Below, in pieces: positions 248-23,858 of a DNA stretch of 40,123 nucleotides. A program made the translations under genes and the position numbers. Source of the stretch: an uncultured Candidatus Poseidoniales archaeon (GTDB taxonomy: Archaea > Thermoplasmatota > Poseidoniia > Poseidoniales > Thalassarchaeaceae); NCBI GenBank assembly GCA_964645485.1, contig CAZXZO010000003.1, forward strand, positions 62,357-102,479, read 5' to 3'. Numbering within the stretch: the first letter of the stretch is position 1; every line of letters starts with the position of its first letter. The notes under the pieces were generated by a model, which was given only the letters and a program-made list of their open reading frames with translations, was not told the DNA's origin and ran no database searches.

Positions 248-466
248 ATGAGAGGGCGAAACTGGGTTGGAGTCGCTTTCATCTTTCTCTTTCTGCCCGT
301 TAACGTACCACTTTGGGATATCGCTTTCGAAAAACTAGATATTGATATTATGGCCGTTTTCATAACACCACTACTGTTTCTATTTGGTATATTGCTTGTA
401 TTCTATCCAAGTAGAAAGGATCGATACCAAACCATTCCATCAAACCAAATCAACGAGGAGGAGTGA
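248..466 (+). CDS. Small hypothetical membrane protein (72 aa, two hydrophobic segments)
   Basis: Two hydrophobic stretches (WVGVAFIFLFLPVNVPLW; IMAVFITPLLFLFGILLVFYP). The stop abuts the next gene's start, suggesting translational coupling. Confidence 0.6.
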   Translation: MRGRNWVGVAFIFLFLPVNVPLWDIAFEKLDIDIMAVFITPLLFLFGILLVFYPSRKDRYQTIPSNQINEEE

Positions 467-2793
467 AAATGAGGAAAATCATTGTAATTAGCCTCGTTTT
501 GGTATTTTCAACCTTTGCCTTACCACTGGCTACTGCTCAAGAAGATGTGCTTCCACCTGATGTTGATTATGAGCCAGAAATACGCATGACTACATTATTT
601 GCGTATAGCCAAGATACTCTATCTCCTGAATTCGTTGAGCGAACCGAAATGTACACTCATAATTTTGGATTTGGATTTGGTTCTGGGCCATCCAATGGGC
701 CAACTTTTACCACACCTAATTTTGTCCGTGATGCCCCAATTGGTAGCGAATCTTGGAATTTCTCACTTTGGGCAAGTGGAAGCGGCCAAGTTGATATTGA
801 CCTCTTCCTGTTCATTGATGGTACTGAATTAGACCAAGTAAATAGCGGTGGAATATCATTATCTGAAGAAAAACAACGTATTGATTTCACTGGAGGGAAT
901 TTACCAGATAACATTTCAATTGACCAAACTCTTTCAATCCGGTGGACGGTAAACAGCGGTGCTCTCCCACTCTTAGAGACTAGTGAATGCACAATCCACT
1001 GGGGCTCAATTGAAACCCCTACTAATCTAACAATCTCTGCTGGAATGTACCAAATTGATGACCCTTACCTAGAGAACGAAGGAACCCCGTTTAGAGGTGA
1101 TGGTGAGAACTATTCTCGAAGTGAGGTGGTTTGGGCGGTTCAAGCAAGGTGGGCTCTTGGTGAAGAACAGTTGGCGAAAGAAACCATAACTTTGCACGCT
1201 AGTGATGGCGGAAATGAACTAATGCTTCTACCGACAGGAGAAGGGATAAAATCTGATACTGGGATTTACCGTTGGGAAATTGAAGAATGGCATGATGGCG
1301 TGGTCATCTCTGCTCATGTGATGTGGAACGATTCTACAGGCAACCATGGGATGACCAATCAGGTGGTTGAAATGATGGACCCGAAGGGACCTAGTATCCT
1401 CAGTAGTAGCCTAAAATCGACATTATTCTTTTTGACTATTCCGCTTCTAATAGGAGTTGGAATCTGGCTAAAGGGGAGATATCACACTCTTGAAGAAAAG
1501 GGAAAGGAACTGGGTCACGGACCTCGTGAAGAAGGTGATTTAAAACGCCTAGTTCTAGCAACCACATTTTTGATTGCGGGGATTAACAACGCTCTTATCC
1601 TCTACACTTTCCACACCCGGGAGTTGGGTGCCTCTGAGGATATTGTGATTCTACATCTCTGTTTGCTGGCATTTGCGCTAGGTGTATTTGGGCTTCTTTG
1701 GGGCGCAATTGCTGATAAATTCGGTCACCGAAAGCAATTGATGGCTTTTGCAATCATTGGTTCAGCTTTACTGATGTTAACTTTCCCATTCCTGCCACTT
1801 GAGGCTTACATTTTTGCTTCAACATTACAGATTGCCCTATTTTCTGCGGTCCGAATGGCGGTTGCTGTTGGCACAGAATGGTATCCTGAACAAAAGGGTG
1901 AATTCCTTGGAGTGCTGTATGCATTCGCTTCATTTGCAGCCGCAATCGGCTCGATGTTATGCAGTAAATTGTATGTCGCTCTATTACCAACCAGTAGCAC
2001 ATTTGCGATGTTAGGAATTGTTGGAGTATCCGTACCTGCCCTACTAATGGGTGCTTACATGATTTTACAATTCAAAGGAGATGAATTTTCATGGCCTGTT
2101 TGGATGTTGAAAGGAGACAAAAAACCGGATGTTGTCAAGTTATCATTTTCGGAAAAATTGGAAATGTTTAGCGGAATGTTTCGATTTGAAAGTAAATGGG
2201 CACTTATCTGTCTGTTCGGTGTAATCCTTGTTGCAATCCCTCGAGGTGCTGTTGTTCTAACTGCTTTACGATACCTTGAGATTGTTGGCTTTGATGTAGA
2301 CTTCACCGGCCTATTAGAAGCATGGGCAGTGATTGCAGTACTCATTTTGTACGCAGTGATTGGCAAAGTTTGCGATGATCGGGGAGCACAAACGGTTCTG
2401 CTTTGGTCAGCAGCAGCATATGGAACTCTCTGGTCTATCTTCAGTATCGGTCTTCCACCTATGATTGCGGTGCTCATATTTATGGTTCCAATTTACCCGA
2501 TGCTACTAGTTTCAAATGATGCTTTGATTGCAAAATTCACAAATGAAGAAGAGAGAAATCGTGGAATTGGCATGGCAAGCCTTGTTGCGTTCTTAGGCCA
2601 ATCTATCGGAATCCTTGCTGGATTCTTCGCAATGGGATACCTCATAAGTTCTGGAAAAACAGATCTTATTGCTTACGAAACATTCTACAAAGCAAATGTG
2701 CCTCTTTGGATAATTGCAATTAGTTTCACGTATTGGCTTGCGAAGCGTATTGATAGTAACGAAAGTGTGATTGATGCTGAGATTAGTGAGTGA
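463..2793 (+). CDS. Fusion: signal peptide + ~300-aa extracytoplasmic domain + C-terminal MFS transporter
   Basis: N-terminal MRKIIVISLVLVFSTFALPLATAQE signal peptide, then an acidic soluble domain, then many TM segments with MFS motif A (WGAIADKFGHRK) and its C-half counterpart (GKVCDDRGAQ). True start is probably ATG 469 after GAGGAGG. Confidence 0.8.
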   Translation: MKMRKIIVISLVLVFSTFALPLATAQEDVLPPDVDYEPEIRMTTLFAYSQDTLSPEFVERTEMYTHNFGFGFGSGPSNGPTFTTPNFVRDAPIGSESWNFSLWASGSGQVDIDLFLFIDGTELDQVNSGGISLSEEKQRIDFTGGNLPDNISIDQTLSIRWTVNSGALPLLETSECTIHWGSIETPTNLTISAGMYQIDDPYLENEGTPFRGDGENYSRSEVVWAVQARWALGEEQLAKETITLHASDGGNELMLLPTGEGIKSDTGIYRWEIEEWHDGVVISAHVMWNDSTGNHGMTNQVVEMMDPKGPSILSSSLKSTLFFLTIPLLIGVGIWLKGRYHTLEEKGKELGHGPREEGDLKRLVLATTFLIAGINNALILYTFHTRELGASEDIVILHLCLLAFALGVFGLLWGAIADKFGHRKQLMAFAIIGSALLMLTFPFLPLEAYIFASTLQIALFSAVRMAVAVGTEWYPEQKGEFLGVLYAFASFAAAIGSMLCSKLYVALLPTSSTFAMLGIVGVSVPALLMGAYMILQFKGDEFSWPVWMLKGDKKPDVVKLSFSEKLEMFSGMFRFESKWALICLFGVILVAIPRGAVVLTALRYLEIVGFDVDFTGLLEAWAVIAVLILYAVIGKVCDDRGAQTVLLWSAAAYGTLWSIFSIGLPPMIAVLIFMVPIYPMLLVSNDALIAKFTNEEERNRGIGMASLVAFLGQSIGILAGFFAMGYLISSGKTDLIAYETFYKANVPLWIIAISFTYWLAKRIDSNESVIDAEISE

Positions 2794-2798
2794 ATCTT

Positions 2799-3494
2799 CT
2801 AGGTCAAATCAGTTTTGTGGGCTAGAGCCACATGGGTTAGTTGACCAGCAAGAATTGGTCTCCATGCATGAACTAGATACGATTGAGAATTAATAGTGAT
2901 TACATTTTTTCCTAGTACCTCAAATGATTGAGGAGCTAGACCCATCCCAAGTCCTGTTGCTTTCTGAATTGCTTCTTTCATCACCCAAATTGAGTTGGTT
3001 AGAGTTTTTGCGGCATCTGAATCATGGTCCCAAGCAGTCTCTAGTTTTTCCAATTCATTTCCTGCTGCCATAAGTGGTAGCAAATTGCGTTGCCGAGTAT
3101 TATCTAGTTCCACATCAATTCCAACAGATAATTCAGTTGGTCCGATAATTGCGATAGCTACTCCACCACTATGGGATATAGAAATTGAAATCGGCTTAGG
3201 CCCAATTAAAATTGGTCTTCGAAATTCATCCCTCTTGATTTGATAATCCTCGACAACATACCCATTCTGTTGAAGAAGATGAGCAATTAGAAAACGACCT
3301 GCAGCATGTTCTTCTGCCCGCTTTGCAACTTTGAATGATTGTGCTTCTATTGGGTCTACGAAATGGAGATGGGAAATATCTGGTATTGGGTCTGTTGCTT
3401 CGGGGGTGCGGGTGTTCATCCAAACTGCGTGGAATTGGCCATAAATATTTCCTACAAGATTTAACTGAGTAGGAATAGAGGGTGGTTTCCACAT
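2799..3494 (-). CDS. 4'-phosphopantetheinyl transferase (Sfp-type)
   Basis: Motifs HAAGRFLI, SISISHS, VGIDVE and WVMKEAIQKATGLG (WxxKEA). Lies 28 nt downstream of the type I synthase on the same strand. Confidence 0.9.
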   Translation of the reverse strand: MWKPPSIPTQLNLVGNIYGQFHAVWMNTRTPEATDPIPDISHLHFVDPIEAQSFKVAKRAEEHAAGRFLIAHLLQQNGYVVEDYQIKRDEFRRPILIGPKPISISISHSGGVAIAIIGPTELSVGIDVELDNTRQRNLLPLMAAGNELEKLETAWDHDSDAAKTLTNSIWVMKEAIQKATGLGMGLAPQSFEVLGKNVITINSQSYLVHAWRPILAGQLTHVALAHKTDLT

Positions 3495-3522: not shown

Positions 3523-6500
3523 TCAATTGCGATTCAACGTAAATGAATCGTCTTCTGAAATAGGTGCCATTCCCTTCAATCGAAGGCCCTTCATTGCCAC
3601 AATCGGTTTACCATCTTGATTGACAATTAAGCAATCGTGAATACTGACTCCGTCATCTTCGCTACCTTTCCTCAAAGAACGCATTCGGAGGGAATCCGTC
3701 TTTTCGGGAACTCTAATCAATTCGAGCATCTCAATTCCAACCGGTAATGATTGCAAACCATCGATTTCCATTGCTACCATTCCAGCATTCTGGAAACAGG
3801 CTTCGATTAACATAGGTTGAGCTTCTAATGTGACATCTCCTACAGAGAATTGGTCGGTGTTTGGTAATTGATGACGAGATAATGCAATACCATCCACACC
3901 ATACATCTCACCGATACTACATCCACCCAAAATTCCACCATGTGATTGGAATCTAGGACCGTGGAAGAATCGTTGGTAAACAAAATCTGACCCAAGGGAT
4001 ACACCTCCTCTTGAAGGAGTACCAATTGATGGTAACTTCAGCAATCCTCGGTCTGCCTCTTTCTTCAGCATTCTAACTAATCCTCTGTGATGTATTCTTG
4101 GTTCACCGAATACCTCTCCAGATTTGTTGATTAAATCGGATTCCAATCTGCATTTAACCCAGACATTTTCCGCGTTTTGATGCGAGTATTCAGCAACCAA
4201 TCTCAACTTCTGTTCTTCTTTAATCAATTTAATTGGTAAACCAAAGCGAACCCCTGCAAATCCAATTACTGAGCAAGGTGGCCACAACAATTGTGCTCCT
4301 TGAGAAAACATTTCTAGAGCCATCACACCAGGATGATACGGCACATCATCAATGGCATGGTCTTGTAAGAATGGGTAATTATTGACATCTATTGTACACT
4401 CATAGGATAGCGAATCAAATGGTTCGTGTGACACAACTTTGTCAACAAAAGGGAAGCGGTTTGCATCGGCTAGTAATTCTGAAACATCTAGAGGTAACCT
4501 TTGAGGAGGCTCTCTGTCAGACCCATCATCATTCAGAACTCCGAGACTTCCAGCAAGGACAACTCTGCGTTTCCCACCTCTCATAACTTCCTCAACAAAA
4601 AGTGATACACCTTGTTCTACAGAGACAGTCTCTATGCCTGCTTGCTCAAACACGCTTGCAATTGAGCCACGAGTAGCCATTCCAACATCTTGCCAACCAG
4701 TCCACGCTAGGGCAACACCGTGAGGTTCTGAATCGGTGTGTGCGAGGCGAGACATCTCGGCATCGAGAATACAATTTGCCGCAGCATAATCGGTTTGCCC
4801 TCCATTACCAAATCTTCCCGCAATCGAGGTGAAAGCACAACAATATCGTAATTCTGTACTGTGGTCTTTGGCGGCATTGAAAAGAGATTGCCAACCATCA
4901 ATCTTGACAGACAAAACTTTGCTAAAGGTATTCCAATCCTTATCAGCAACCATCTTGGAATCTTCAATTCCCGCTCCATGAATAATTCCAGTTATCTGTG
5001 AGCACTTTTTCTTCAACTTCTTGAGAACTTTTCGAACTTGGCTACTCACTGTCACATCACATGAGTGATAAGTTACTGAATTACCACTAGATTCGATATC
5101 TAACATGGTTTTATGAATATCAATTGAACGAACAATCTCTGACCATGCATTCTCCCAATCAACGATTGTAACTTTGACAGATTTCGAATCTGTTTGCATC
5201 TGTTCTCGTAACTCTAATTTCATTTTCTGCAAAGTTTCATCTGTTGCAGTGGCTAAATTTGAAAGAGAATCGTCAAGTTTGGTTCTTCCTAGTAATGCAA
5301 AGTGGCATCCTACATCCCTATTGGCTTGTGCTAGCCCGACAATACATGCGGCAGTCACTCCTGAACCGCCCCCTGATACAATGAACACATCATCTGATTG
5401 TAGTGACTTCGGCTCAGATTCATGGGCTTCGTCATAGATGCAAACCTGCCATCTTCTACCATCCCCGTCAATTCCGATTTCACGAGGCCCCATATGCTCA
5501 ATTTCGGCGAGAATTGTTGTCGCTAATTTATCTGCATCAACCAATAGTTCGGGCGCTACATCGATTGCTCTTGCCCGGATGTTTGGCCTTTCCCTACCAT
5601 AGGATTTGACTATACCATGCGCCCCAGCACCAAGAGGATTGAAGCGATGACCGCCATTTCCATGGCGGCCATCAAGTGCTGAAATTGAACATACAATTCC
5701 GTCACTACGGTTAGCCAACTTCGCATCTATTTGTTGGAGTACCCCAAATAACCCATGGCAAACCATCTGTGTTTGTTGTTGACTAGTAACCTCTGCCCAA
5801 GCAATCCCGGCTAAGGTGGAAGGAGCAGTGTGAATAACTCCTGCAACATCTAAATCATTGATTATGTCTCCAAATTGAGTGAGATGGTCTTGATTGCCTG
5901 GATCTAATCTGATGATATCGATTTCTCCATCTTTTTCAATTTTGATGTTTGAAGTTATACTTGGGTCTAACATCAATCTAACAGCTTCTGACCCACTAGA
6001 TTCAAGTTGCTCACAAATTGCGTTTCCAAGCCCCCACGAATCGTCAGTCACAATGATGTATGAGCCAGCCATATCTATTGGATGGGCCTCAGATTCATCT
6101 GCCTCCTCAACCTCAACGACGAGGCGAGTAACAGTGCTTTCAACAGGAGTTAATTGCGGCTCTGGTTCTATTATTTCCACTTCAGGTTCAACAGGAGTTG
6201 ATTGCGGCTGTGGTTCCATTACTTCCACTTCAGGTTCATCGGGAATCTCCTCGGGTTCTTCAGGTTCTTCAGGTTCATCAGGAATCTCGGATTGCTCAGG
6301 GTCAGAGTCTGGAGTTTGCTCACTGACTGATTCATCTCCACGCATTGAAACGATGTAGGAAATCATATGTGCAAGAGTAGGATAGTCACGCAATTGGAAT
6401 GAATCATCTACAGGCAAGGAAAAGTTTTCTCGGCATTCAGCCATTATTTCCGCTTGTTTTACTGTATCAATCCCCAACTCACCTTCTAAATCTTGATCTA

Positions 6501-9500
6501 ACTCTAGGAAATCTTCTGGATAACCCGTGTGCTTTACAACGATTGAAAGGACGCCTGACTCAACATCGCTATCGTTATTCTCTATACTTGGAGAATGGTT
6601 CACCACCGGCTCTTCGGGCAGAGTAGTACTCTTGGAGACTTGCTCCTCTTGTGTGTTTTGTTGTTCATCTCCATATCCCCCCATAGCAACGATATAACTA
6701 ATCATGTGGTTCAGTGTTGGGTGTTCACGTAACTGGAATGAGTCATCAACCGGTAAGGAAAATGTTTCTCTTAAATCAGCCATTATTTCTGCCTGTTTCA
6801 CTGTGTCAATTCCTAATTCGCCCTCTAAGTCTTGGTCTAATTCAATGAAATCGGTCGGGTAACCTGTGTGCTTTGCAACAGTTTCCACAACTTGCTGTTC
6901 AAGCCCATCAGGATGGACTCCAACAGTTGGTTCGGGAACTGTCTCAGTTTCTTGAACTGGAATCGAAGACTCTTCTGTGGGTGATTCGATTTTCTCCTCT
7001 TTGATTACAATTGGCTCGGGTTCATTGGATTCGGAAGTTGTAGATTTCGCATCAATGGATGCAGGCTTTGCATCTTGCTTGGAAACTCGCCATTCACTAC
7101 CTTCAACGCCACCTATCAATGATTCATCCGGAGCAATGTAAGCGACTAATTTTCGCTCCAACAATCGTAATTCAACGTCATCACCTGCTTGCTGAATTGC
7201 CCAATTCACCACACTCTCTCTATCAACACGGTTGAGAGTTCTAGCAATTCGTTTGAACATTGTTAGAGCAATTTGGCTACCAAATCCAGCAGCATGGCGA
7301 AGCATGTATTCAACATCATATTCTCCACCTTCTGAAAGTCGGAGATTTCCTAATGAAGGGTCTGGTTGTTTGAAGTTAGCAATTGGCGGCAATCTGCCTG
7401 ATGCTAATCCATACAATCCAGTGGCATCTTCTATGCCAACACCCATCGGATGACCTGTGAATCCTTTGGTATTGGTTATGATTAAACTGTCAGCAGATTC
7501 CTTAAAAGCTCCTCTAAGTGATTCAATTTCAGCGGCTGCTGAACCTCCCCGTGGTGGAGTAAATGGTTCATGTGACATGAAAGTCGTTTTCGGAGCGATT
7601 TCATGTCTATCTATTCCCCACCGGTTTTCCATATCGGTCACAAACTCATCGAAAGTTGAGGCTACATGTTCCACATCAAGTCTAGTAGGATGGAAGGCTG
7701 AGTTACCAATGTGACCGCCCAATAACTCAGCATAAGGAATAACTCCCCTATCATCTGCATGAGATGATTTCTCAAGTACAAAGGCAGCACCACCCATACC
7801 CAGCAACATACCGTTGCGTCTGCCATCAAATGGCAACGCTACTTCTTCCACTACATTGCCCATTGAATGGGCACCTGCAGCGGCGAAGCCTGCACCAATC
7901 CATTCCATCAAATCTTCACCGGTGGAATCATCACCGCTGATTACAATAACTCTGTCACAACGACCAGAATCTAGCCAATCCTCTGCGATTGCGAAGGCTG
8001 CTGGAGTGGATGCACATGCGTTGTTAATAGCAAGATTTGGACCGCGGGCGCCTATCCATTGAGCGAACTGTGCGTGACCCATCGTCAGAATTTGAAGTAA
8101 GAATTTTCTATCGAAAGTACCGTTCTCATCAGCCCCATTATTCAGAGCGTGTCGCATGGCCATGGCTATTCCGGGAAATACCGAGGCGAACACAACCCCT
8201 GTTCTTTCACGAATTGAGTTAGGGAGATTCCACCCTCTCACTAATCTCTTACCTGCACTACTGACCTGTTCAACAGGCAATAATGGAAGTGCTGCATCTT
8301 TGAGAGCCTCCAATCCTGCGGCAAATGAAAGGGAAGTAGAAACATCCATTGCCGCCACTATTTTGGGGTCGATCCCATATTGCTTTGCCAAATCAAAGTA
8401 ACCACCAACGCCTGCTAATTGAGGTATCGTAGCAAAGGAATCACATGGTACGAATTCTGCTCTGCCATCTGTGTGCTTAACGATTCTAACCATATTTTTG
8501 TCGAGTAAACGCTGCTTGACATCATCAGGTAATTCGGTTATGAAATTCTCTCCAGCAATAATTCTCTCTAATGCATCTGGCTCAAAAATTTCATCCATAC
8601 CGGGGAGACCAAGGCTCACTCCGGTCACAACATAGGGGTTGATTCTTCTCTCTGCATGAGGATCAGAAGACACTACAACAGTACTTGCTCCTTTCACTTT
8701 TTGAGAAACAGTATATCCACTCGGGGGAGAGACTACCCATTCATTTAGGGAAACTAATGTTGTTAATTGGCTCGGGTCAGCCGGGCCTGATACAGATGCT
8801 TCAGATGCTATACTTGCTAGAAATTCGGGTAAGGCCTCATCTGAAATTCCAAGCGCTGAAAGATGGAGTTCACCTTTTATCAGACGGGATGGATAGCCGG
8901 TAATTTCTGAAATTCGGCTTGCTAGGTATCCCTCCTTGTCAACCACCTGTTGTACAACCTGGTGGCTATCACCAATTGCAATTGATTGTGATTGATTATT
9001 GTGAGATGCTTCTACTTGATTACTATCTGAGGAAGTGGATGGAAGCGGTCGAGAGCGGACTCGTAATTCTTCCATCTCTTCACTATTGATTGAACCACTG
9101 CTTCCAACTCCATTTTGTTGCCACACCTCCAAAGGCCCAGCCCTGAACCCTTCAGTGAGACGGTTTGAATCGCCTTGGTGCATTGATGGTAATCGTCCTG
9201 AAAGAGCACATACTGTTAGGGAAGATAGGAATGATGCTACTCCTCCCACCTTCGGGTGATTTGTGTTGGTAATTACCTTAGACCTTTTTTCGAGAATTTG
9301 TTCAGCGAAAAGTGCCAATGCTCGCTTAGGTCCTACCTCAATGAATAAGCGGCCACCTTGGCGATACATCTCTTCAATTTGTTGAGTCCATTCTACTGCA
9401 GATGACATCTGTGGTGCTAATTGATTCAGGATAGCATCGTGAACTGATTCACCATCTTTCAGGTTTTCAGGATAGAATTTCCCATCATAGTTTGCTGTAA

Positions 9501-12087
9501 TAGGGATTGACGGCAACGACAATTCTAATTCTTCAAGGAAGCGGTGTAGTGGCTCGTTTGCAGGTGCTACAATTCGTGAATGGAATGCGTGACTTGTCTG
9601 TAGAGTAACGCATGGAATATTCAATTCAGCAAATCGAGAAATTGCATTTTGCATTGGTTCTGTTTCTCCAGCGATGACGGCCATCATCGGGGAATTTTTA
9701 TTCGCGGCAATAATGTAACCATCAACTGAATCTATGACTTCCTGTATTTTCTCTAGTGGTGCAGAGACGCTTGCCATCAATCCCTTGTCCTTGACTTCCA
9801 CACTACCCATTTCAGTTCCCCGGGCAGCCGCAGCACGAAGTGCGTCGTGGAATTTCATGATTCCAGATACCATCAATGCGGCGTATTCACCCAAACTATG
9901 GCCAGCAACCATGTCTGGATTGATTCCGTGTTCACTTAGCAATCTGTAAATTGCTAAATCTGCTGTCAACATTGCTGGTTGAGTAAATTCAGTTTGCTTC
10001 AACTTGTTCTCAGCATCTTTTGCCTGCTGTTCTGATAGGTTATCGCGCAGAACGAACTCAGAAAGTTTCTCGCCTGCAAGAATTTCGGACATCGTGGAAT
10101 CCGCTTCATCCCATGTTTCCCCAATCACTTCAAACCTCTTTGAGAGATCTAAAGTCATGCCAACATATTGACTACCTTGACCCGGATACATTTGTACTAA
10201 TTTTGCAGTTGAGGGTAATGGACCCTGTTCAGTGATGAATACCATCTGTTTTGCTAAGAAGTCCCATTTTGTTGAATCTGAGAGATTATCACTCAGTAAC
10301 TCCATTCTCTTGGCTAATTGCCCCCAACTAGTGGCTACAATTCCGCAACGGGCTCCTTTGGCTTCAAAATCAGAGGATAAATCAGCGAGCACTGCTGAGA
10401 GTCTACGCCCTGCTGGGTCGGTGTCAAAATTTGATACAGATGATGAGAAGAGAATCGATTTAACTCGCTCAATTTCTGATGCTAATGAATCAATATCATC
10501 AGCATTTAGAAGCAAGATCCCTCCTTCAATATCCAGCAATTCCTGATGACTCATTGAAGGAGTTGCGGTTGGATCAAGAACACTTGGTGCGACAGGAATT
10601 TGTGCGCTAGAAGAGGACTGCTCCGCAAAACTATTGATGAGATTTTTGTGATGTTCGGGGTCGTATTGCTCAATGGTACAATGGAAATTTGTCCCACCAA
10701 AACCAAACGACGAAACACCCGCACGCCTAGGCCCTCTAGATTGTGGAATCGGCCAATCAGAGGAAATAGTTGGGACGAAAAATGGGATATCATTCCAGTT
10801 AACTGAAGTGTTTGGTTGTTCAAACCCGGCTGATGGAGGTAAAGTTCTGTGATGAAGTGCTAAACTTGCCTTCAACAACCCCGCCATTCCGGCAGCAGCC
10901 TTCAGATGCCCAATCTGGCTCTTCACCGAACCTACGGCAACAAAATCCCCAGCACCGCGTTCTGCAAAAACTCCAGCGAGGGTGGATAACTCAGTTGCGT
11001 CTCCAACCTTTGTGCTAGTTCCGTGAGCCTCAATCAATTCCACCGAGGACGGTGAATATCCTGCCTGTTGGTATGCGCGAACCACTGCTTGCTTTTGCCC
11101 CCGAGTTGATGGCGCAGTGATACCTTTTCCTCGACCGTCACTAGATGAGCCGATTCCTCGGATTACACTGTATATTGTATCGCCATCGGCCATTGCATCC
11201 TCCAATCGCTTGAGAACGACACAACCTGCTCCCTCCCCCATCACGAAGCCGTTAGCACGGACATCGAATGGACGAGAATGAAGTGGAGATAGGGCTCCAA
11301 TAGCACTGAATTTTGCATATGTCCCTGGGTCCATAGTACGGTCACTTGCCCCACATAGCATCAAATCAGTTTGACCTGTTTGCAACATCTGGCATGCCGA
11401 TACTAATGCTGCAAATGTCGATGCACAAGCGGCATCAGCACTGAAATTCGGGCCTTGTAAGTCGAGTAGATTTGCTACTCGCCCTGCAACAACATTTGCT
11501 AGTTCTCCAGCCATTGTATCTTCATCAATTCGAGGTGTTCCTTCAGTGATTGCATCTTTGAATTCATCACTATTGGTTGCTGGCATTCCAGCTTCAACTG
11601 CCTTCCGTGTAATTTGGTCTGCGTAAACTCGTTTACTAGACTGGACTCGGTTTTCCCCACCCAATGCATTAGCGAAAATTACCCCACAGCGAGCCTTGGG
11701 GAGTTCTAAACGGCTATTTTCGCCGATGTAACCTGCGTCCTCCAATGCTGCTGCTGAAACTTCAACAGCCCACAATTGGGTGTCATCAATTTGGGAGAGT
11801 GTTCCCGGCGGTTGTTTCCAGCGCCTCCAATTAAATTCAAAACCTTCTACAAAAGCCCCGATCTTTGAGTAGGTTTTTCCTTCTGTTGCATTACCTGGCT
11901 CACCTTCAATCCAAAAATCAGCCGGGTCCCATCTATCAGGTGGCACTTCACGAATTGCTACTTTCGCATTCAACACATTATTCCAAAACGCGTCAATATT
12001 CGGTGCATCAGGTAAAAGAGCAGCCTGACCAACAATCGCAATCGGCGCGAAAGGTTGTTGGGGAACTTCGGCCAGCTGTTCAGTCAT
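3523..12087 (-). CDS. Type I iterative fatty-acid/polyketide synthase, 2854 aa: KS-AT-(degenerate ACP)-KS-ACP-ACP-KR-DH
   Basis: KS1 DAACAST/EAHGTST/GHLKAAAG; AT GHSLGEY with HAFH; KS2 NNACAST/SHEPFT/KGFTGHPMG; two ACPs ELGIDTVKQAEI; KR SGGGSGVT and DYAAAN; DH DHAIDDVPYHP. Confidence 0.92.
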   Translation of the reverse strand: MTEQLAEVPQQPFAPIAIVGQAALLPDAPNIDAFWNNVLNAKVAIREVPPDRWDPADFWIEGEPGNATEGKTYSKIGAFVEGFEFNWRRWKQPPGTLSQIDDTQLWAVEVSAAALEDAGYIGENSRLELPKARCGVIFANALGGENRVQSSKRVYADQITRKAVEAGMPATNSDEFKDAITEGTPRIDEDTMAGELANVVAGRVANLLDLQGPNFSADAACASTFAALVSACQMLQTGQTDLMLCGASDRTMDPGTYAKFSAIGALSPLHSRPFDVRANGFVMGEGAGCVVLKRLEDAMADGDTIYSVIRGIGSSSDGRGKGITAPSTRGQKQAVVRAYQQAGYSPSSVELIEAHGTSTKVGDATELSTLAGVFAERGAGDFVAVGSVKSQIGHLKAAAGMAGLLKASLALHHRTLPPSAGFEQPNTSVNWNDIPFFVPTISSDWPIPQSRGPRRAGVSSFGFGGTNFHCTIEQYDPEHHKNLINSFAEQSSSSAQIPVAPSVLDPTATPSMSHQELLDIEGGILLLNADDIDSLASEIERVKSILFSSSVSNFDTDPAGRRLSAVLADLSSDFEAKGARCGIVATSWGQLAKRMELLSDNLSDSTKWDFLAKQMVFITEQGPLPSTAKLVQMYPGQGSQYVGMTLDLSKRFEVIGETWDEADSTMSEILAGEKLSEFVLRDNLSEQQAKDAENKLKQTEFTQPAMLTADLAIYRLLSEHGINPDMVAGHSLGEYAALMVSGIMKFHDALRAAAARGTEMGSVEVKDKGLMASVSAPLEKIQEVIDSVDGYIIAANKNSPMMAVIAGETEPMQNAISRFAELNIPCVTLQTSHAFHSRIVAPANEPLHRFLEELELSLPSIPITANYDGKFYPENLKDGESVHDAILNQLAPQMSSAVEWTQQIEEMYRQGGRLFIEVGPKRALALFAEQILEKRSKVITNTNHPKVGGVASFLSSLTVCALSGRLPSMHQGDSNRLTEGFRAGPLEVWQQNGVGSSGSINSEEMEELRVRSRPLPSTSSDSNQVEASHNNQSQSIAIGDSHQVVQQVVDKEGYLASRISEITGYPSRLIKGELHLSALGISDEALPEFLASIASEASVSGPADPSQLTTLVSLNEWVVSPPSGYTVSQKVKGASTVVVSSDPHAERRINPYVVTGVSLGLPGMDEIFEPDALERIIAGENFITELPDDVKQRLLDKNMVRIVKHTDGRAEFVPCDSFATIPQLAGVGGYFDLAKQYGIDPKIVAAMDVSTSLSFAAGLEALKDAALPLLPVEQVSSAGKRLVRGWNLPNSIRERTGVVFASVFPGIAMAMRHALNNGADENGTFDRKFLLQILTMGHAQFAQWIGARGPNLAINNACASTPAAFAIAEDWLDSGRCDRVIVISGDDSTGEDLMEWIGAGFAAAGAHSMGNVVEEVALPFDGRRNGMLLGMGGAAFVLEKSSHADDRGVIPYAELLGGHIGNSAFHPTRLDVEHVASTFDEFVTDMENRWGIDRHEIAPKTTFMSHEPFTPPRGGSAAAEIESLRGAFKESADSLIITNTKGFTGHPMGVGIEDATGLYGLASGRLPPIANFKQPDPSLGNLRLSEGGEYDVEYMLRHAAGFGSQIALTMFKRIARTLNRVDRESVVNWAIQQAGDDVELRLLERKLVAYIAPDESLIGGVEGSEWRVSKQDAKPASIDAKSTTSESNEPEPIVIKEEKIESPTEESSIPVQETETVPEPTVGVHPDGLEQQVVETVAKHTGYPTDFIELDQDLEGELGIDTVKQAEIMADLRETFSLPVDDSFQLREHPTLNHMISYIVAMGGYGDEQQNTQEEQVSKSTTLPEEPVVNHSPSIENNDSDVESGVLSIVVKHTGYPEDFLELDQDLEGELGIDTVKQAEIMAECRENFSLPVDDSFQLRDYPTLAHMISYIVSMRGDESVSEQTPDSDPEQSEIPDEPEEPEEPEEIPDEPEVEVMEPQPQSTPVEPEVEIIEPEPQLTPVESTVTRLVVEVEEADESEAHPIDMAGSYIIVTDDSWGLGNAICEQLESSGSEAVRLMLDPSITSNIKIEKDGEIDIIRLDPGNQDHLTQFGDIINDLDVAGVIHTAPSTLAGIAWAEVTSQQQTQMVCHGLFGVLQQIDAKLANRSDGIVCSISALDGRHGNGGHRFNPLGAGAHGIVKSYGRERPNIRARAIDVAPELLVDADKLATTILAEIEHMGPREIGIDGDGRRWQVCIYDEAHESEPKSLQSDDVFIVSGGGSGVTAACIVGLAQANRDVGCHFALLGRTKLDDSLSNLATATDETLQKMKLELREQMQTDSKSVKVTIVDWENAWSEIVRSIDIHKTMLDIESSGNSVTYHSCDVTVSSQVRKVLKKLKKKCSQITGIIHGAGIEDSKMVADKDWNTFSKVLSVKIDGWQSLFNAAKDHSTELRYCCAFTSIAGRFGNGGQTDYAAANCILDAEMSRLAHTDSEPHGVALAWTGWQDVGMATRGSIASVFEQAGIETVSVEQGVSLFVEEVMRGGKRRVVLAGSLGVLNDDGSDREPPQRLPLDVSELLADANRFPFVDKVVSHEPFDSLSYECTIDVNNYPFLQDHAIDDVPYHPGVMALEMFSQGAQLLWPPCSVIGFAGVRFGLPIKLIKEEQKLRLVAEYSHQNAENVWVKCRLESDLINKSGEVFGEPRIHHRGLVRMLKKEADRGLLKLPSIGTPSRGGVSLGSDFVYQRFFHGPRFQSHGGILGGCSIGEMYGVDGIALSRHQLPNTDQFSVGDVTLEAQPMLIEACFQNAGMVAMEIDGLQSLPVGIEMLELIRVPEKTDSLRMRSLRKGSEDDGVSIHDCLIVNQDGKPIVAMKGLRLKGMAPISEDDSFTLNRN
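6139..6290. repeat. In-frame tandem repeats encoding the acidic Pro/Glu linker between ACP2 and KR
   Basis: Two 48-bp units (6139-6186, 6187-6234; 4 mismatches) encode PEVEVMEPQPQSTPVE/PEVEIIEPEPQLTPVE, next to short 9-bp-type repeats encoding EPE. Confidence 0.85.
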
Positions 12088-14028: not shown

Positions 14029-14652
14029 TCACGAATCTTCTTCATCGACTTCAAGTGCAGGCTCTTGTGGCTCGGGTTCAACTTTTTCCTCAGATTCATC
14101 GGATTTCACTAATACTTCCACGAATAGATTTTCGGCATCAAATTTAGTTCCCCAATGTGTGGCTGCCATCTCGACCAAATTTTTGTGCCTTGCTCCAAGA
14201 GCAATTCCAAGTCCATTTGAAAAGAATAGTAAATCCATATCGTGTAGTTCGTCACTAATACGAATGCACTCAAGCCGCTCATCTGATTCAAAAGCAGGAT
14301 AATATTCTGAAACTTGGTCTGTTCTAAGTGGTTGGCCAAAATCAAACGAAACCACCAGAGGGCCTTTCTCGGTACTAATGCCTTCATCGGGCCTACCTAA
14401 TCTGAGTAACATCTCACGAGCTGCGGCCCATGCGATTTCTGAATGATTGGTCCCGTGTACCACCAATCTTCCCTCTTCATCAACTAATAGTGTGGCTCGT
14501 GGATTCTTAAGAGCCAGTATCACATACTTACCACTCTTTTTGCCACCAAGGGAATTGATGACCTCTTCTGCTTCAAATGGTTGAGGTGCTGTGAACCTAA
14601 CCAACTGGTTCTCTACCCTAACTTTGACTGCACTTCGACGACCCATCTTCAC
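14029..14652 (-). CDS. Divergent TATA-box-binding-protein (TBP)-fold protein
   Basis: Two pseudo-repeats resembling TBP halves: ATLLVDEEGRLVVHGT...AWAAAREML and MDLLFFSNGLGIALGARH...VEMAATHW. The canonical YEPEQFPGL segments are absent. Acidic C-terminal tail. Confidence 0.6.
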   Translation of the reverse strand: MKMGRRSAVKVRVENQLVRFTAPQPFEAEEVINSLGGKKSGKYVILALKNPRATLLVDEEGRLVVHGTNHSEIAWAAAREMLLRLGRPDEGISTEKGPLVVSFDFGQPLRTDQVSEYYPAFESDERLECIRISDELHDMDLLFFSNGLGIALGARHKNLVEMAATHWGTKFDAENLFVEVLVKSDESEEKVEPEPQEPALEVDEEDS

Positions 14653-15440: not shown

Positions 15441-16646
15441 TCAACCTAAAATTGATGAATCCTTAGCTAAATCGTTGGTGATATTCTTCTGGTGACTCTC
15501 CAAAGTCCCACCACCGATTTCAAGCAGTTTTGCGTCACGCCATAATCTCTCAACTACATATTCTCCAACATAACCGTAACCACCCATGACTTGCATAGCA
15601 CGATCTGCAATATCCTTCGCTAGGGTTGTTGAGACCAATTTGATACCGTCAGAATCCAGACGATTACCGCTTTGTTCAACATCCATTTGTCTAGCCACAT
15701 TGTAGAGGTATGCCTCCATTCCACGCCATTCAGCAAATGATTGCCCGATGTAACGTTGTATCTGACCAAAATCTCTAATCGGCCGCCCAAATGCTTCTCT
15801 CTCGGTGGCATAACGATTCATTTCTTTGACACAGCGGCGAGCAATACCTAGACTCATCCCCGCTAAAGTAAGCCGTTCTAATTCTAGATTTCTCATCATG
15901 TGAATCATTGATTCACCACATTCCCCAACGAGACTATCAGGGCCAACCACACAGTCATCATAGACTAATTCAGCTGTGTTGGAACCACGCATTCCAGTTT
16001 TATCAACAATCTTTTGCCCAACTGAAAACCCAGGGGAATCTGCGAACACCATGAAAGTTGAAATCTCAGCTCTACCGTTTTCTTTTACTCCTGTTTTAGC
16101 ATAAGTCCAAACAACATCACATGGTGTACCTTCTTCATCAATACAGCCGTTAGTAATCCACATTTTACGGCCGTTGATTACCCAATTTCCGTCATCTCTT
16201 TGCTGAGCAGTAGTGCCCATTGACATCACATCTGTACCAACATCTGGTTCAGACATTGCCATGGCTCCTATCCACTCACCACTGCAAACTTTGGGAAGTA
16301 TCTCTTGCTTTTGAGTAGAATTACCATTTCGTGATAGGTTGTTGACAAACAACATACTATGAGCAAGATACGCCAAAGCAAATCCAGGGTCACTATAGGA
16401 TAATTCCTCGTGAACAATTGTAGCGGCTAAGGCGTCCATTCCAGCCCCACCATACTCTTCTGGAGCGGTAATTCCCAATAGCCCTAGTTCACCCATATCA
16501 CGTAATAATTGGAGATTGAACACCTCATTTCGGTCAAACTCAAGTGCTTGTGGCTCAACTTCTGAACTGACCCAGTCACGAACCATTTCTCTTAACATTG
16601 CATGTTCTTCGGTCGGATTGGCGATGTCAAGCGTCTTGTAATCCAC
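15441..16646 (-). CDS. ivd: Acyl-CoA dehydrogenase, isovaleryl-CoA dehydrogenase-like
   Basis: AMSEPDVGTD, GRKMWITNG, LELERL and LWRDAKLLEIGGGT. There is no Glu at the MCAD IYEG position, as in IVD-type enzymes. Start set at GTG 16646 (GAGGGTGA upstream), which avoids overlap with the upstream gene. Confidence 0.75.
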   Translation of the reverse strand: MDYKTLDIANPTEEHAMLREMVRDWVSSEVEPQALEFDRNEVFNLQLLRDMGELGLLGITAPEEYGGAGMDALAATIVHEELSYSDPGFALAYLAHSMLFVNNLSRNGNSTQKQEILPKVCSGEWIGAMAMSEPDVGTDVMSMGTTAQQRDDGNWVINGRKMWITNGCIDEEGTPCDVVWTYAKTGVKENGRAEISTFMVFADSPGFSVGQKIVDKTGMRGSNTAELVYDDCVVGPDSLVGECGESMIHMMRNLELERLTLAGMSLGIARRCVKEMNRYATEREAFGRPIRDFGQIQRYIGQSFAEWRGMEAYLYNVARQMDVEQSGNRLDSDGIKLVSTTLAKDIADRAMQVMGGYGYVGEYVVERLWRDAKLLEIGGGTLESHQKNITNDLAKDSSILG

Positions 16647-16675
16647 GCTCTCACCCTCATCTAATTTACGTGATC

Positions 16676-19600
16676 TCACTTGTTCTCTCGTACCCAATCC
16701 TGGAGTTGTTGCAGTGACCATCCTTGGTCAAAGTAACCTTGAATCGTTGCATCATCCCAGAATGGGAATAGACGCTTTGCTCGATCCATCTTTGAATCAC
16801 CGCCAGCAGCAGGTCCTCCACCGTAACCAGGTGGGCCACTGCTCTGTGTACCATAATCTGAGCCTCCCGTTTCTGCACGAGGTGGTCCTCTAGACATTGG
16901 AGTTACTGCTTCTCCCGGAGGCAAGTAATCTTCATCTTCGACAAAGAAATCACCCTCCTCATCGCCTTCTCTACCCATATACATCATGATTCCAACAACC
17001 AATGCTATCAGTACTACAATGATTGCAGCAATGCCACCGTACAATGCCCAGTTCGTACCAGCTTCTCCTGCACTACCCGCTTCACGAATGTGGAAGGAAG
17101 GAGATTCACCTAATTCATTACCTGATGAATCATGCAGTTTTAGCATAACAGACGAAACCGGCAGAGGGAATGCTTCAACTTGTACTCTACAAATACTGTT
17201 CATTCCTGGTTCAAAAGAAGTCCCACATGAGTAGTTGAAGTTGCTTTGTTGTCGGCCTTCTATTAGAGTGAATATCTGTAAATCTAATTCTCCAGAATCA
17301 GTACCTACATTGGTTACATCCACAAGTAATTCGAATGGCTGACCGGCCTCAGGTTGACCAGGTGAAACAATGATTTTGTTGATAACAAACTCTGCTTCCT
17401 TGTAGGTCAGTGCAAAATCACCGCCTTCAACAGCAGAACCAAATTGTCCGCCAAGAGTAACTCCATTACCCGCTGAATCTGTTCCAGTCACCCAGAACCT
17501 CAAATCAACTCCTTCAAGGTCTGATGGTAATTCATGGCCGGGCCACAAATCAATACAGTTACCAATTGCGCGATTTGGTGATGCAGACAAATCCAACTGC
17601 AAGTCTGCAGTCTGCCAAGCATCAGGGAAAGTTGAGCGATACTGGCTCCAATTCAAATCATGCTCATAATACATCCAATTGATTTGCATTGAATTTGCTA
17701 CTAATTTCTGTCTCTCTTGAATTGGGAAATTAATGTTCACACAATGAATAGTTGAGGAAGGTAAAATTCCCTCAAACTCTTCGGAGTCAGAACCTGAGGT
17801 TAATTTCCATGAACCAAACGGTACTGTAGGTGCCTCATTGTCAACTTTCACGTAGAAAGTTTTGTCATCTGTCATTGAGAAATCGTTAGCACCTGCTGGT
17901 AAGGTATTCTCACAATCAGGGTTGTTAACATCAGTTGAGTCACAGACTCTGAAAACATATCGATATTCGTTAGTTGAGAGTGCTGCTGGTATCACTAAAT
18001 CAAATGTACCATTTTCAAAACTATAGTAGAATACTTCTGTTGCAGCAGCCACATATCCACTGTTAGGCTTGTCTGATTCTCCACCCGGATAAACTGGAGT
18101 TCTAGTCAATTCAATTGTCATTGGAATCTCTGGTTGAACATCAATTCCAGACTCTAGTGCCGCCTTGAAGTAATATTCACCGTGTAATTGCAATAAGTCA
18201 CCTGGCCGAACAAAGCCGCCGTCTTGAGTGCCAACGGAGTTTGTTATGAAACCTGAAGTGTCATCAACAGTTAGGGATTCACTATCAAACTTCAAACCAG
18301 AAGAATATGCTAACAATTGGATGTAGCGACTGCTTGAAAGTTTGCTTTCACCATTCTGTGGGTCCAAGTCTTTCATGAAAACTTCAGGAGTTATCACTCC
18401 CTGAAGATTAACCACACCCCAACGCATCCTTATCGGTATATCAACTAAGAATTCTGTCTCAAAGGGGTCGATGAGAGCGGTGCCATCTGGCCTTGTAATT
18501 CTTGGACCCATTCCATCTGAATCAAAAGTCAACATATCTGCTGAACTACTGTCACTCCAAGAAGTCCCATTACGTGGTGAGAAGTAAACGATGAGGTCAT
18601 CACTGATTGCTGGATTAAGGTCGACTTTAACATAATCAACATCTCTCCAACCATTGTCGTCATTTCCTTCAACCAACAAGTGATAGACATTTCCTGCATA
18701 TACTGATTTGTTAAATTCTGTTAATGGGTTTCCACCAGCATCGCTGACATGGAATGAGTAAACTCCGGGTGGGCGAGATTGCTTCCCGATATAGGTGATC
18801 AAATCAGAAATGAATCCTTCACTTCCACCATCAACTGGGTTGCCAGAAATATCTGTTCCAGAAACGAACAAACTGGTTCGAGGGGCTGGTTCTCCATTAG
18901 GGACAGTCAAACCGGTTTGACGGTCATCAATACAATCATTTGTTGGTTGACATCCAGGATTTGAGACGAAGTAAGTTGTATTTCCATTCACATCAGTTGT
19001 ATCTGCAATAAGAGGTACAGACTGATATTCACTCAATTCAGGAATCCTGTTATTGTTAGTGTCGTGTTGTGCTTCAACCCAGAAATTCAACACGAATGAA
19101 GGTGGGGTTTCAGGAATATCTCTTACTACAACTCGGAATTTTTGATTTGCCTGAGGAGGTATCCATGTATCATCTGCAAGGTCTCTCCATTCCTGTAATC
19201 CCATTACACTGATGTTAATCAGATATGGAGAATATTGGTCAATGTACACCGTCATTGGTATTCCACAATCTAAGTCTGGTGAAAGTGAGACTGGTGGGCA
19301 ATTGGTATCCCCACCCGTATAATTGTCAAGGCGAAGTCGGTATGTGTCATTTCCTGCTGAAAGTGCTGGAATAGCAGGTTGCCAAGAAAAGTTACCACCC
19401 AAGACACCAGGAAGTCGGTCAATTTCATTCCATTGACTTATGTTTGAGTCATTTTGTAGTTCAAAGACAAGTGTGTAGGATGCTGGGTCAGGAGCGACAT
19501 CTAAGTCCTCAAATCTTACAGTTCCTTCCAAAGTCAACTCATTGTTGCTGTGGATATTTTCAAGATCTGTTTGCTCTGCATCTGCCTGATTAAAAACAGT

Positions 19601-23396: not shown

Positions 23397-23858
23397 ATGC
23401 CGGATGAGCCATTCACGACTGAACCAGTAGTACTAATTCAGGAAGTTTTCCCTGGGGATACGAATGCTTACAACACCCTTTTTGGCGGTAGATTGCTTTC
23501 AATAATGGATACTGCTGCAGGGATTGTCTCTAGTAAATTTGCCCACCGCGAGTTTGTGACTGTCAGCATTGATTCCCTCAAATTCAAACGTCCTGCATTC
23601 CAAGGAGATTTGATTGAGGTTACTGCACAGGTTGTTTTTACTTCAACCCATACCGCTGGTTGCTACATAATCGCTAGGCGGCTTGACCGCAGTGTTTGGG
23701 AATCAGAAGATATCTGTACTGGCTTTTTCTTTATGGTTGCAATTGATAATCAAATGAGACCAATTCCTATTCCTCAGTTAGTCCCAAAAAGTGAGGAAGA
23801 AAAGAATCTGTGGAAAGCAGCGGAATCTGCTCGTGATGCAATGAAGGCATCTGACTGA
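23397..23858 (+). CDS. Hotdog-fold acyl-CoA thioesterase (YciA-like)
   Basis: DTNAYNTLFGGRLLSIMD...VTVSIDSLKFKRP...GDLIEV signature. Confidence 0.9.
   Translation: MPDEPFTTEPVVLIQEVFPGDTNAYNTLFGGRLLSIMDTAAGIVSSKFAHREFVTVSIDSLKFKRPAFQGDLIEVTAQVVFTSTHTAGCYIIARRLDRSVWESEDICTGFFFMVAIDNQMRPIPIPQLVPKSEEEKNLWKAAESARDAMKASD

What the first reader, a model, noticed from the sequence alone, without database searches (positions are those of the whole stretch)
6340..6895. Both carrier domains have Thr, not Ser, at the phosphopantetheine site
Seen: ACP1 and ACP2 both read ELGIDTVKQAEI. The Thr codons are ACA at 6802-6804 (T1762) and 6463-6465 (T1875), while neighbouring synonymous codons differ between the copies, and no Ser is adjacent. 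Established: PPTases modify the invariant Ser of the (L)G(I/L)DS motif. Inference: because KS, AT and a dedicated PPTase are intact and no Ser-ACP is visible in the cluster, the simplest reading is Thr-linked phosphopantetheinylation by an adapted PPTase, a non-canonical modification. Alternatives are inactive ACPs or a trans-acting Ser-ACP elsewhere. I have an unverified recollection of GIDTVKQ in uncharacterised bacterial synthases, so it may mark a wider family.
Basis: partly seen in the sequence, partly recalled or inferred. Interest (0 to 1): 0.85.

Follow-up and report, generated by a model that had tools for sequence, protein, structure and literature searches.

The report
Threonine-type acyl carrier domains
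Both carrier domains of a giant fatty-acid/polyketide synthase in a marine archaeon have threonine where textbook carriers have the serine that holds the cofactor arm; this is the norm in a large enzyme family that includes CexF, a bacterial pigment synthase tied to its product by gene deletion, so an undescribed threonine-linked cofactor attachment is likely and easy to test.

Summary
Observation confirmed: T1762 and T1875 (both ACA) sit at the phosphopantetheine position, at the start of helix II of an ACP fold. The host is a Marine Group II archaeon (Poseidoniales); the operon is fabI - synthase - PPTase.

Thr is the family norm: 985 of 1,046 carrier copies (59 Ser, 2 other). Forty synthases with a fused PPTase have only Thr carriers. 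A single-contig relative has no other ACP and one PPTase. ACP and PPTase are both missing from the same six genera. Two Poseidoniales lineages switched to Ser independently (AU p=0.007).

New here: CexF, the celluxanthene synthase of Clostridium thermocellum, whose deletion abolishes the pigment (PMC12144888), belongs to this family and has Thr in all three carriers; the paper does not mention it. Its cluster also has a Ser-ACP, so this is not proof.

Best reading: Thr-linked phosphopantetheine (~0.68), with no direct chemical evidence. E. coli ACP S36T is not modified. A PPTase adaptation to Thr was not found in the sequences.

The scan reported this Thr motif before on many other genomes; a word search found no earlier CexF link.

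The parts
6679..6903 (-). ACP1 (residues 1729-1803), Thr1762 at the cofactor site (codon 6802-6804)
6340..6564 (-). ACP2 (residues 1842-1916), Thr1875 at the cofactor site (codon 6463-6465)
3523..12087 (-). 2854-aa iterative type I synthase KS1-AT-[degenerate ACP0]-KS2-ACP1-ACP2-KR-DH; no thioesterase
   Evidence: best NCBIfam hit TIGR02813 PfaA, 838 bits, under the 1010 cut-off
10645..12045 (-). KS1 with Cys221-His355-His394
9202..10191 (-). AT with catalytic Ser731 and the HAFH (malonyl-type) motif
8728..8940 (-). Degenerate ACP-like domain (ACP0), no conserved Ser/Thr at the site; not seen in the bacterial relatives inspected
7228..8640 (-). KS2 (called CLF by Shulse and Allen) with intact Cys1358-His1506-His1546; family signature domain
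4648..5400 (-). KR with NADPH-binding motif and Tyr2434
3574..4452 (-). PKS-type DH (His2577; Glu2762 at the usual Asp position)
2799..3494 (-). Sfp/EntD-type PPTase (His108, Asp127, Glu129, Trp170, Lys173, Glu174, Lys178); the only PPTase found in the genome
12097..12972 (-). FabI-like enoyl reductase, 9 nt upstream of the synthase

Best explanation
The two domains are working acyl carriers whose phosphopantetheine arm is attached to a threonine hydroxyl. The neighbouring PPTase transfers the arm from CoA to T1762 and T1875 (inferred). The AT loads malonyl, KS1/KS2 condense, and KR, DH and the separate FabI reduce, giving a mostly saturated acyl chain iteratively (inferred from intact active sites; the product is unknown). 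Thr is the ancestral state of the family and can be replaced by Ser. The carrier seems built around the extra methyl group, with Val at +1 and Gln at +3 (correlation shown, cause inferred). A possible reason for keeping Thr is insulation from the housekeeping ACP machinery, which does not modify Thr in E. coli. Most Ser switches seen are in archaea, which lack that machinery (speculative).
For: (1) 985 Thr, 59 Ser, 1 Ala, 1 Gly among 1,046 carrier copies. Samples chosen by KS2, blind to the site, gave 234 Thr, 1 Ala, 0 Ser and 322 Thr, 15 Ser, 3 other, with 115 of 124 proteins all-Thr. (2) dN/dS of ACP1+2 is 0.02-0.05, like KS (0.03-0.04); ACP0 0.08-0.12, linker 0.22-0.28, PPTase 0.14-0.15. 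(3) A PPTase lies directly downstream in 53 of 53 testable Poseidoniales loci, with catalytic residues invariant in 52 Thr-type PPTases. (4) Of 56 synthases with a fused PPTase, 40 have only Thr carriers. (5) The single-contig 2.06-Mb genome G003 has three Thr carriers, no other ACP and one adjacent PPTase. No type II ACP in 151 genomes. The same six genera (126 genomes) lack both ACP and PPTase. (6) Two all-Ser clades nest among Thr orthologues in the same operon; one origin is rejected at p-AU 0.007. (7) CexF of C. thermocellum has Thr in all three carriers (T1624, T1732, T1863), nests in the family, and its deletion abolishes celluxanthenes (PMC12144888). (8) Modelled PPTase-ACP1 complex: score 0.93, best control 0.02 (mark reached by 58 of 80 solved and 2 of 110 mismatched pairs; runs agree in at least 98% of contacts; partner pLDDT at least 91), with T1762 and PPTase E129, W170, E174 in the interface. 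This probably reflects likeness to solved Sfp-type/carrier complexes and says nothing about chemistry.
Against: No mass spectrum, assay or structure shows the linkage. E. coli ACP S36T cannot be modified and is non-functional (PMC3340395). No Thr-specific PPTase residue was found. The cex cluster also encodes a stand-alone Ser-ACP (CexB), and bacteria have their own AcpP. The cexF deletion may be polar on cexG and, from primer positions, may clip the end of cexE. The window's own genome is only 82% complete. The product of the archaeal synthase is unknown.
Confidence: 0.68

Rival explanations
1. The Thr domains are unmodified scaffolds or docking modules, and a Ser carrier encoded elsewhere carries the chain in trans; the PPTase primes that carrier.
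For: S36T blocks modification in E. coli. The cex cluster has the Ser-ACP CexB. Bacteria have AcpP. A few family members keep one or two Ser copies among Thr copies. One of 401 Poseidoniales bins has a stand-alone ACP (G173).
Against: No other ACP in G003 (single contig) or the own genome by Pfam, TIGR00517 or a family HMM, nor among 151 genomes. The G173 ACP lies at a contig end among gene fragments and looks bacterial, probably contamination (my reading). PPTase and synthase are lost together. 40 fused-PPTase synthases are Thr-only. No ACP gene in four bacterial loci.
Confidence: 0.12
2. The synthase works without covalent priming: the Thr domains bind CoA or acyl-CoA non-covalently (or carry an O-acyl ester), and the PPTase has a changed role.
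For: ACP-independent fatty acid synthesis has been proposed for archaea (own knowledge). KS2 is unusual. The region around the site is almost invariant, which could reflect a ligand-binding surface.
Against: PPTase Mg/catalytic residues are intact. Thr exchanges almost only with Ser, and whole clades run on canonical Ser in the same operon. Tandem copies of up to 8 match carrier-throughput logic. I know no precedent for this mode.
Confidence: 0.1
3. Thr carriers are primed only slowly or partly; in mixed proteins the Ser copies do most of the work, and all-Thr enzymes run at low occupancy.
For: A secondary alcohol is a poorer nucleophile (chemistry). Ser has been regained several times, sometimes in only some copies.
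Against: Thr is one base change from Ser yet stays fixed in 94% of copies across phyla, including single-carrier proteins. This rival still implies a Thr linkage.
Confidence: 0.07
4. The gene is decaying, or the Thr codons are read or edited as Ser.
For: Only that every characterised carrier uses Ser.
Against: Open frame, intact active sites and dN/dS 0.02-0.05. All four Thr codons occur at the site across archaea and many bacterial phyla.
Confidence: 0.03

Closest known systems
CexF/CexG, celluxanthene iterative PKS and PPTase of Clostridium (Acetivibrio) thermocellum (PMC12144888); the 'Type T' cluster of Shulse and Allen 2011 (PMC3098273)
   Same: Order KS-AT-KS-ACPn-KR-DH with a PPTase gene directly downstream; all carriers read GIDTVKQ; KS2 has the same Cys-His-His and signature; 31-33% identity over KS-AT and KS2-ACP; nests in the family tree. 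The type-strain protein ABN51376 also has three Thr carriers.
   Different: CexF makes an arylpolyene (no enoyl reductase in the cluster) and works with two KAS III, a ligase, a hydrolase and a Ser-ACP. The archaeal operon has FabI, none of those genes, two carriers and an extra degenerate ACP. The paper's text does not mention Thr.
'Type R' secondary lipid synthase cluster (Shulse and Allen 2011, PMC3098273)
   Same: Single pfaA homologue KS-MAT-'CLF'-ACPn-KR followed by a PPTase gene, sometimes with an ACC gene between, as in locus L140. Relatives found here include Chloroflexi and Terriglobales.
   Different: Described only in bacteria, with 3-6 ACPs, no DH noted and the second KS called a CLF. 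The paper mentions neither threonine nor archaea; product unknown. The named reference proteins could not be fetched.
PfaA tandem ACPs and PfaE PPTase of PUFA synthases (TIGR02813)
   Same: KS-MAT, tandem carriers, KR, dedicated Sfp-type PPTase; best NCBIfam hit.
   Different: Below the cut-off (838 vs 1010). PfaA carriers have Ser (own knowledge). Here KS2 and DH are in the same chain, and FabI stands where PfaD would.
Canonical ACP/PCP with serine-linked 4'-phosphopantetheine (E. coli AcpP Ser36; PigH)
   Same: Fold, helix II position and the preceding Gly-x-Asp.
   Different: Thr at the site; in E. coli AcpP the same change abolishes modification (PMC3340395).

Membership tests
Acyl carrier protein domain (PF00550) | Profile match and helical-bundle ACP fold | tested here: met
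   39.5 and 31.3 bits, cut-off 20.8; model pLDDT 85, TM 0.75-0.81 to solved ACPs
Acyl carrier protein domain (PF00550) | Invariant Ser at the start of helix II | tested here: not met
   Thr1762 and Thr1875
Acyl carrier protein domain (PF00550) | Covalent phosphopantetheine and acyl-thioester carriage | not testable with these tools
   needs mass spectrometry
CexF-like / Type T iterative PKS family | KS-AT-KS-ACPn-KR-DH in one chain with a downstream PPTase | tested here: met
CexF-like / Type T iterative PKS family | Shared KS2 clade and carrier motif | tested here: met
   CexF nests among family KS2 domains; same motifs
cex (celluxanthene) gene cluster | Accessory genes cexA-E (two KAS III, Ser-ACP, ligase, hydrolase) | tested here: not met
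   the window has fabI and tatD upstream and an MFS gene beyond the PPTase
Type R secondary lipid synthase | One gene KS-MAT-second KS fold-tandem ACP-KR plus downstream PPTase | tested here: met
Type R secondary lipid synthase | 3-6 ACPs and a CLF (non-catalytic) second KS | tested here: not met
   two carriers here (1-8 in relatives); KS2 keeps Cys-His-His
Type R secondary lipid synthase | KS1 clade with the Koribacter, Solibacter, Roseiflexus and Elusimicrobium proteins | not testable with these tools
   accessions seen in the supplement, sequences not retrievable
PfaA (TIGR02813) | Score over the curated cut-off; PfaB/C/D partners | tested here: not met
   838 vs 1010 bits; no pfaB/C/D beside it
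Sfp/EntD-type PPTase (2799-3494) | S-H, G-x-D-x-E and W-x-x-K-E-x-x-x-K motifs | tested here: met

The most novel reading that the evidence does not exclude
A whole family of iterative synthases, spread across archaea (Poseidoniales, other Thermoplasmatota, Heimdallarchaeota) and many bacterial phyla and including CexF, attaches 4'-phosphopantetheine to threonine. This would be a natural linkage I found no report of, and could form a carrier/PPTase pair orthogonal to the serine-based housekeeping system.
Probability: 0.65. Interest if true: 0.88.

Novelty: new variant of a known kind. Interest (0 to 1): 0.8.

Why it matters
Serine is treated as the only attachment site for phosphopantetheine, and Ser-to-Thr is used as a standard inactivating mutation. 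A natural Thr linkage would overturn that rule, and annotation that scores such carriers as dead would need correcting for a family with at least 524 clusters at 50% identity (KS2 hits at E<=1e-30). It could give a carrier/PPTase pair that host enzymes do not touch. It also decides whether abundant marine Group II archaea have a working ACP-dependent route to acyl chains, since these are the only carriers found in their genomes. The CexF link moves the test from uncultured archaea to a cultured organism with genetics and a visible yellow readout.

Tried and rejected
Hidden Ser carrier in the chain: ACP0 has Asp 25, Glu 14, Ser 11, others 17 at the site in 67 orthologues and is more relaxed in dN/dS; rejected. 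Alternative conserved Ser inside the carriers: none. Stand-alone ACP: weak hits in G003 and G014 were an antisense frame, an unrelated ORF and a ferritin-like protein; short homologues were Poseidoniales fragments with Thr. Thr-specific PPTase residue: Q177, M142, R88 and R92 are enriched in Thr-type Poseidoniales but are not kept in fused Thr-type PPTases, and R88 persists in one Ser clade; no diagnostic residue. Carboxyltransferase genes (3 per genome) occur equally in genomes with and without the synthase, so they say nothing specific. Searches used the carrier as query and favour Thr, so I repeated the count with KS2 as query. In the KS2-only tree four Ser rows dropped out through a motif-picking slip; the two-origin result rests. 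Two scripts had regex errors, corrected.
Full report
Observation. The finding lies in ORF 3523-12087 (minus strand, 2854 aa). Both carrier domains read ELGIDTVKQAEI, with T1762 (ACA, 6802-6804) and T1875 (ACA, 6463-6465); 30 of the 59 residues shared by the two copies use different codons. The Thr is in register with the cofactor serine: it aligns with the Ser of both carriers of the solved PigH doublet, and in an AlphaFold model (pLDDT 85) it is the first residue of helix II of a fold matching type II ACPs at TM about 0.8.

Anatomy. The chain is KS1-AT-ACP0-KS2-ACP1-ACP2-KR-DH. Both KS domains keep Cys-His-His, the AT has its Ser and a malonyl-type motif, and KR and DH keep their catalytic Tyr and His across 45 orthologues. 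It has no conserved hydroxyl residue at the site and was not seen in the bacterial relatives inspected. FabI lies upstream and an Sfp/EntD-type PPTase downstream. The closest loci are Poseidoniales, Thalassarchaeaceae. The PPTase follows the synthase in 53 of 53 testable loci and FabI precedes it in 52 of 53.

Spread of Thr. In 79 Poseidoniales loci there are 183 Thr and 8 Ser copies, with all four Thr codons used. Because carrier queries favour Thr, I resampled by KS2. A mostly actinobacterial set gave 234 Thr, 1 Ala and no Ser. Representatives at 50% identity gave 322 Thr, 15 Ser and 3 degenerate copies; 115 of 124 informative proteins are all-Thr. Pooled, 985 of 1,046 distinct copies have Thr and 59 have Ser. 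Thr copies have Gln at +3 in 984 of 985 and Val at +1 in 967; Ser copies vary more (Gln 48 of 59, Ile at +1 in 36). The Ser copies come from few lineages, so this is a pattern, not a statistical test.

Are the carriers alive? Between the window and three close relatives, dN/dS is 0.02-0.05 for ACP1+2, 0.03-0.04 for the KS domains, 0.08-0.12 for ACP0, 0.22-0.28 for a linker and 0.14-0.15 for the PPTase. PPTase catalytic residues are invariant in 52 Thr-type loci. Among longer relatives, 56 carry a fused PPTase and 40 of those have only Thr carriers; named examples include Thermoplasmatota, Asgard archaea and a Bradymonadaceae bacterium.

Is there a Ser carrier in trans? The own genome (82% complete) shows only these two carriers and one PPTase. 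G003, a single 2.06-Mb contig rated 96% complete, has three Thr carriers in the synthase, no other ACP and one adjacent PPTase. No type II ACP was found in 151 Poseidoniales genomes at least 85% complete. In a 401-genome sample, 20 genera have both ACP and PPTase and the same six genera (126 genomes) have neither. One bin has a stand-alone Ser-ACP at a contig end; it looks bacterial and I read it as contamination.

Ser and Thr exchange. A KS tree rooted on bacteria makes Thr ancestral. Two Poseidoniales clades have Ser in all carriers, with different motifs, and a single origin is rejected (p-AU 0.007). They keep the operon's PPTase. Other Ser cases are Heimdallarchaeota, Thermoplasmatota, a fragment that groups with Thermoplasmatota and one unassigned, probably bacterial protein. 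That most switches are archaeal fits the idea that Thr insulates the carrier from housekeeping ACP enzymes in bacteria; this is speculation on few events.

A member with a known product. Earlier scan notes pointed to Shulse and Allen 2011 (Type R). Its supplement lists a C. thermocellum gene of the same architecture, called Type T. I identified it as CexF, the celluxanthene synthase; the mutant made to delete it lacks the yellow pigment (PMC12144888). Using a published primer I fetched the locus; gene sizes match the paper's table, three primers match, CexG is identical to the C. thermocellum entry, and CexF differs at 3 residues from the type-strain protein ABN51376. All three CexF carriers have Thr (T1624, T1732, T1863) and the chain has no Ser carrier motif. 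CexF is 31-33% identical to the window synthase over KS-AT and KS2-ACP, shares the KS2 signature and nests in the family. The paper's model uses the cis carriers but does not mention Thr. Caveats: the cluster has a stand-alone Ser-ACP (CexB); from primer positions the deletion removes the start of cexF, may clip the last codons of cexE and could be polar on cexG.

Complex model. The window PPTase with ACP1, CoA and Mg scored 0.93 against a best control of 0.02 (mark reached by 58 of 80 solved and 2 of 110 mismatched pairs; at least 98% contact agreement; partner pLDDT at least 91). T1762 and PPTase E129, W170 and E174 are in the interface. Solved Sfp-type/carrier complexes exist, so this probably shows likeness, not chemistry.

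Mechanism and rivals. Most likely (0.68) the PPTase puts phosphopantetheine on the Thr hydroxyl and the synthase runs an iterative, FabI-completed elongation. Shown here: the residue, its position, its conservation, the linkage to an intact PPTase, no other carrier found, and exchange with Ser. Inferred: the covalent bond, activity and product. Against it, E. coli ACP S36T cannot be modified (PMC3340395). Rivals: a trans Ser carrier (0.12), a non-covalent or other role (0.10), weak partial priming (0.07), decay or recoding (0.03).

Novelty. I found no paper reporting natural Thr phosphopantetheinylation in the library searched, which omits most subscription journals. The architecture is known (Types R and T, CexF); the Thr site appears undescribed. 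This scan has reported the Thr motif on many other genomes, and one later check put the claim at 58 in 100; those notes are not independent evidence. The words celluxanthene and CexF occurred in no earlier finding. Verdict: new variant of a known kind, interest 0.8.

Noticed in passing
window 7228-8640: The second KS, called a chain-length factor in the 2011 survey, keeps Cys-His-His in all archaeal orthologues checked and in CexF: two apparently active KS domains share one AT, KR and DH.
   Followed up: partly
L140:6304-8004, L146:1-624, L147:5297-6928, L148:5282-6946: In four of four bacterial loci inspected an acyl-CoA dehydrogenase-like gene lies directly upstream of the synthase, where Poseidoniales have fabI; P0108 has a PF03060 (FabK-like) hit in the chain. 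These may be three solutions for the enoyl-reduction step.
   Followed up: no
Poseidoniales genera g4, g6, g7, g9, g12, g13: Six genera of the window's family (126 genomes searched) show neither carrier nor PPTase, while 178 of 199 genomes of the large sister family have the carriers; a natural contrast for lipid comparisons.
   Followed up: partly
P0395, P0392 (Heimdallarchaeum, 3-Mb contigs): Self-priming synthases with carriers in the order Ser-Thr-Ser; only the Thr copy keeps Gln at +3. A natural within-protein control.
   Followed up: partly
P0363 (L143:2640-12215): All-Ser member with an extra carrier between KS1 and AT and a fused PPTase, beside bactofilin and phytoene-synthase-like genes; the one probably bacterial all-Ser case.
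   Followed up: partly
window 463-2793: MFS transporter with a long N-terminal extension, tail to tail with the PPTase; conserved there only in the closest relatives.
   Followed up: partly
window 15441-16721, 23397-23858, 26906-28240: An acyl-CoA dehydrogenase, a hotdog thioesterase and a biotin carboxylase lie 3-15 kb upstream of the synthase; any link is untested.
   Followed up: no
window 16676-22516: 1946-aa ORF with no Pfam hit at E<=0.01.
   Followed up: no
window 14029-14652: Divergent TBP-like protein (Pfam 21.2 bits, under the cut-off) between tatD and an unknown gene.
   Followed up: no
L084 (G146:C24): One Poseidoniales bin has a second 2356-aa protein with two carrier domains, separate from the Thr synthase, on a contig of higher GC.
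   Followed up: no
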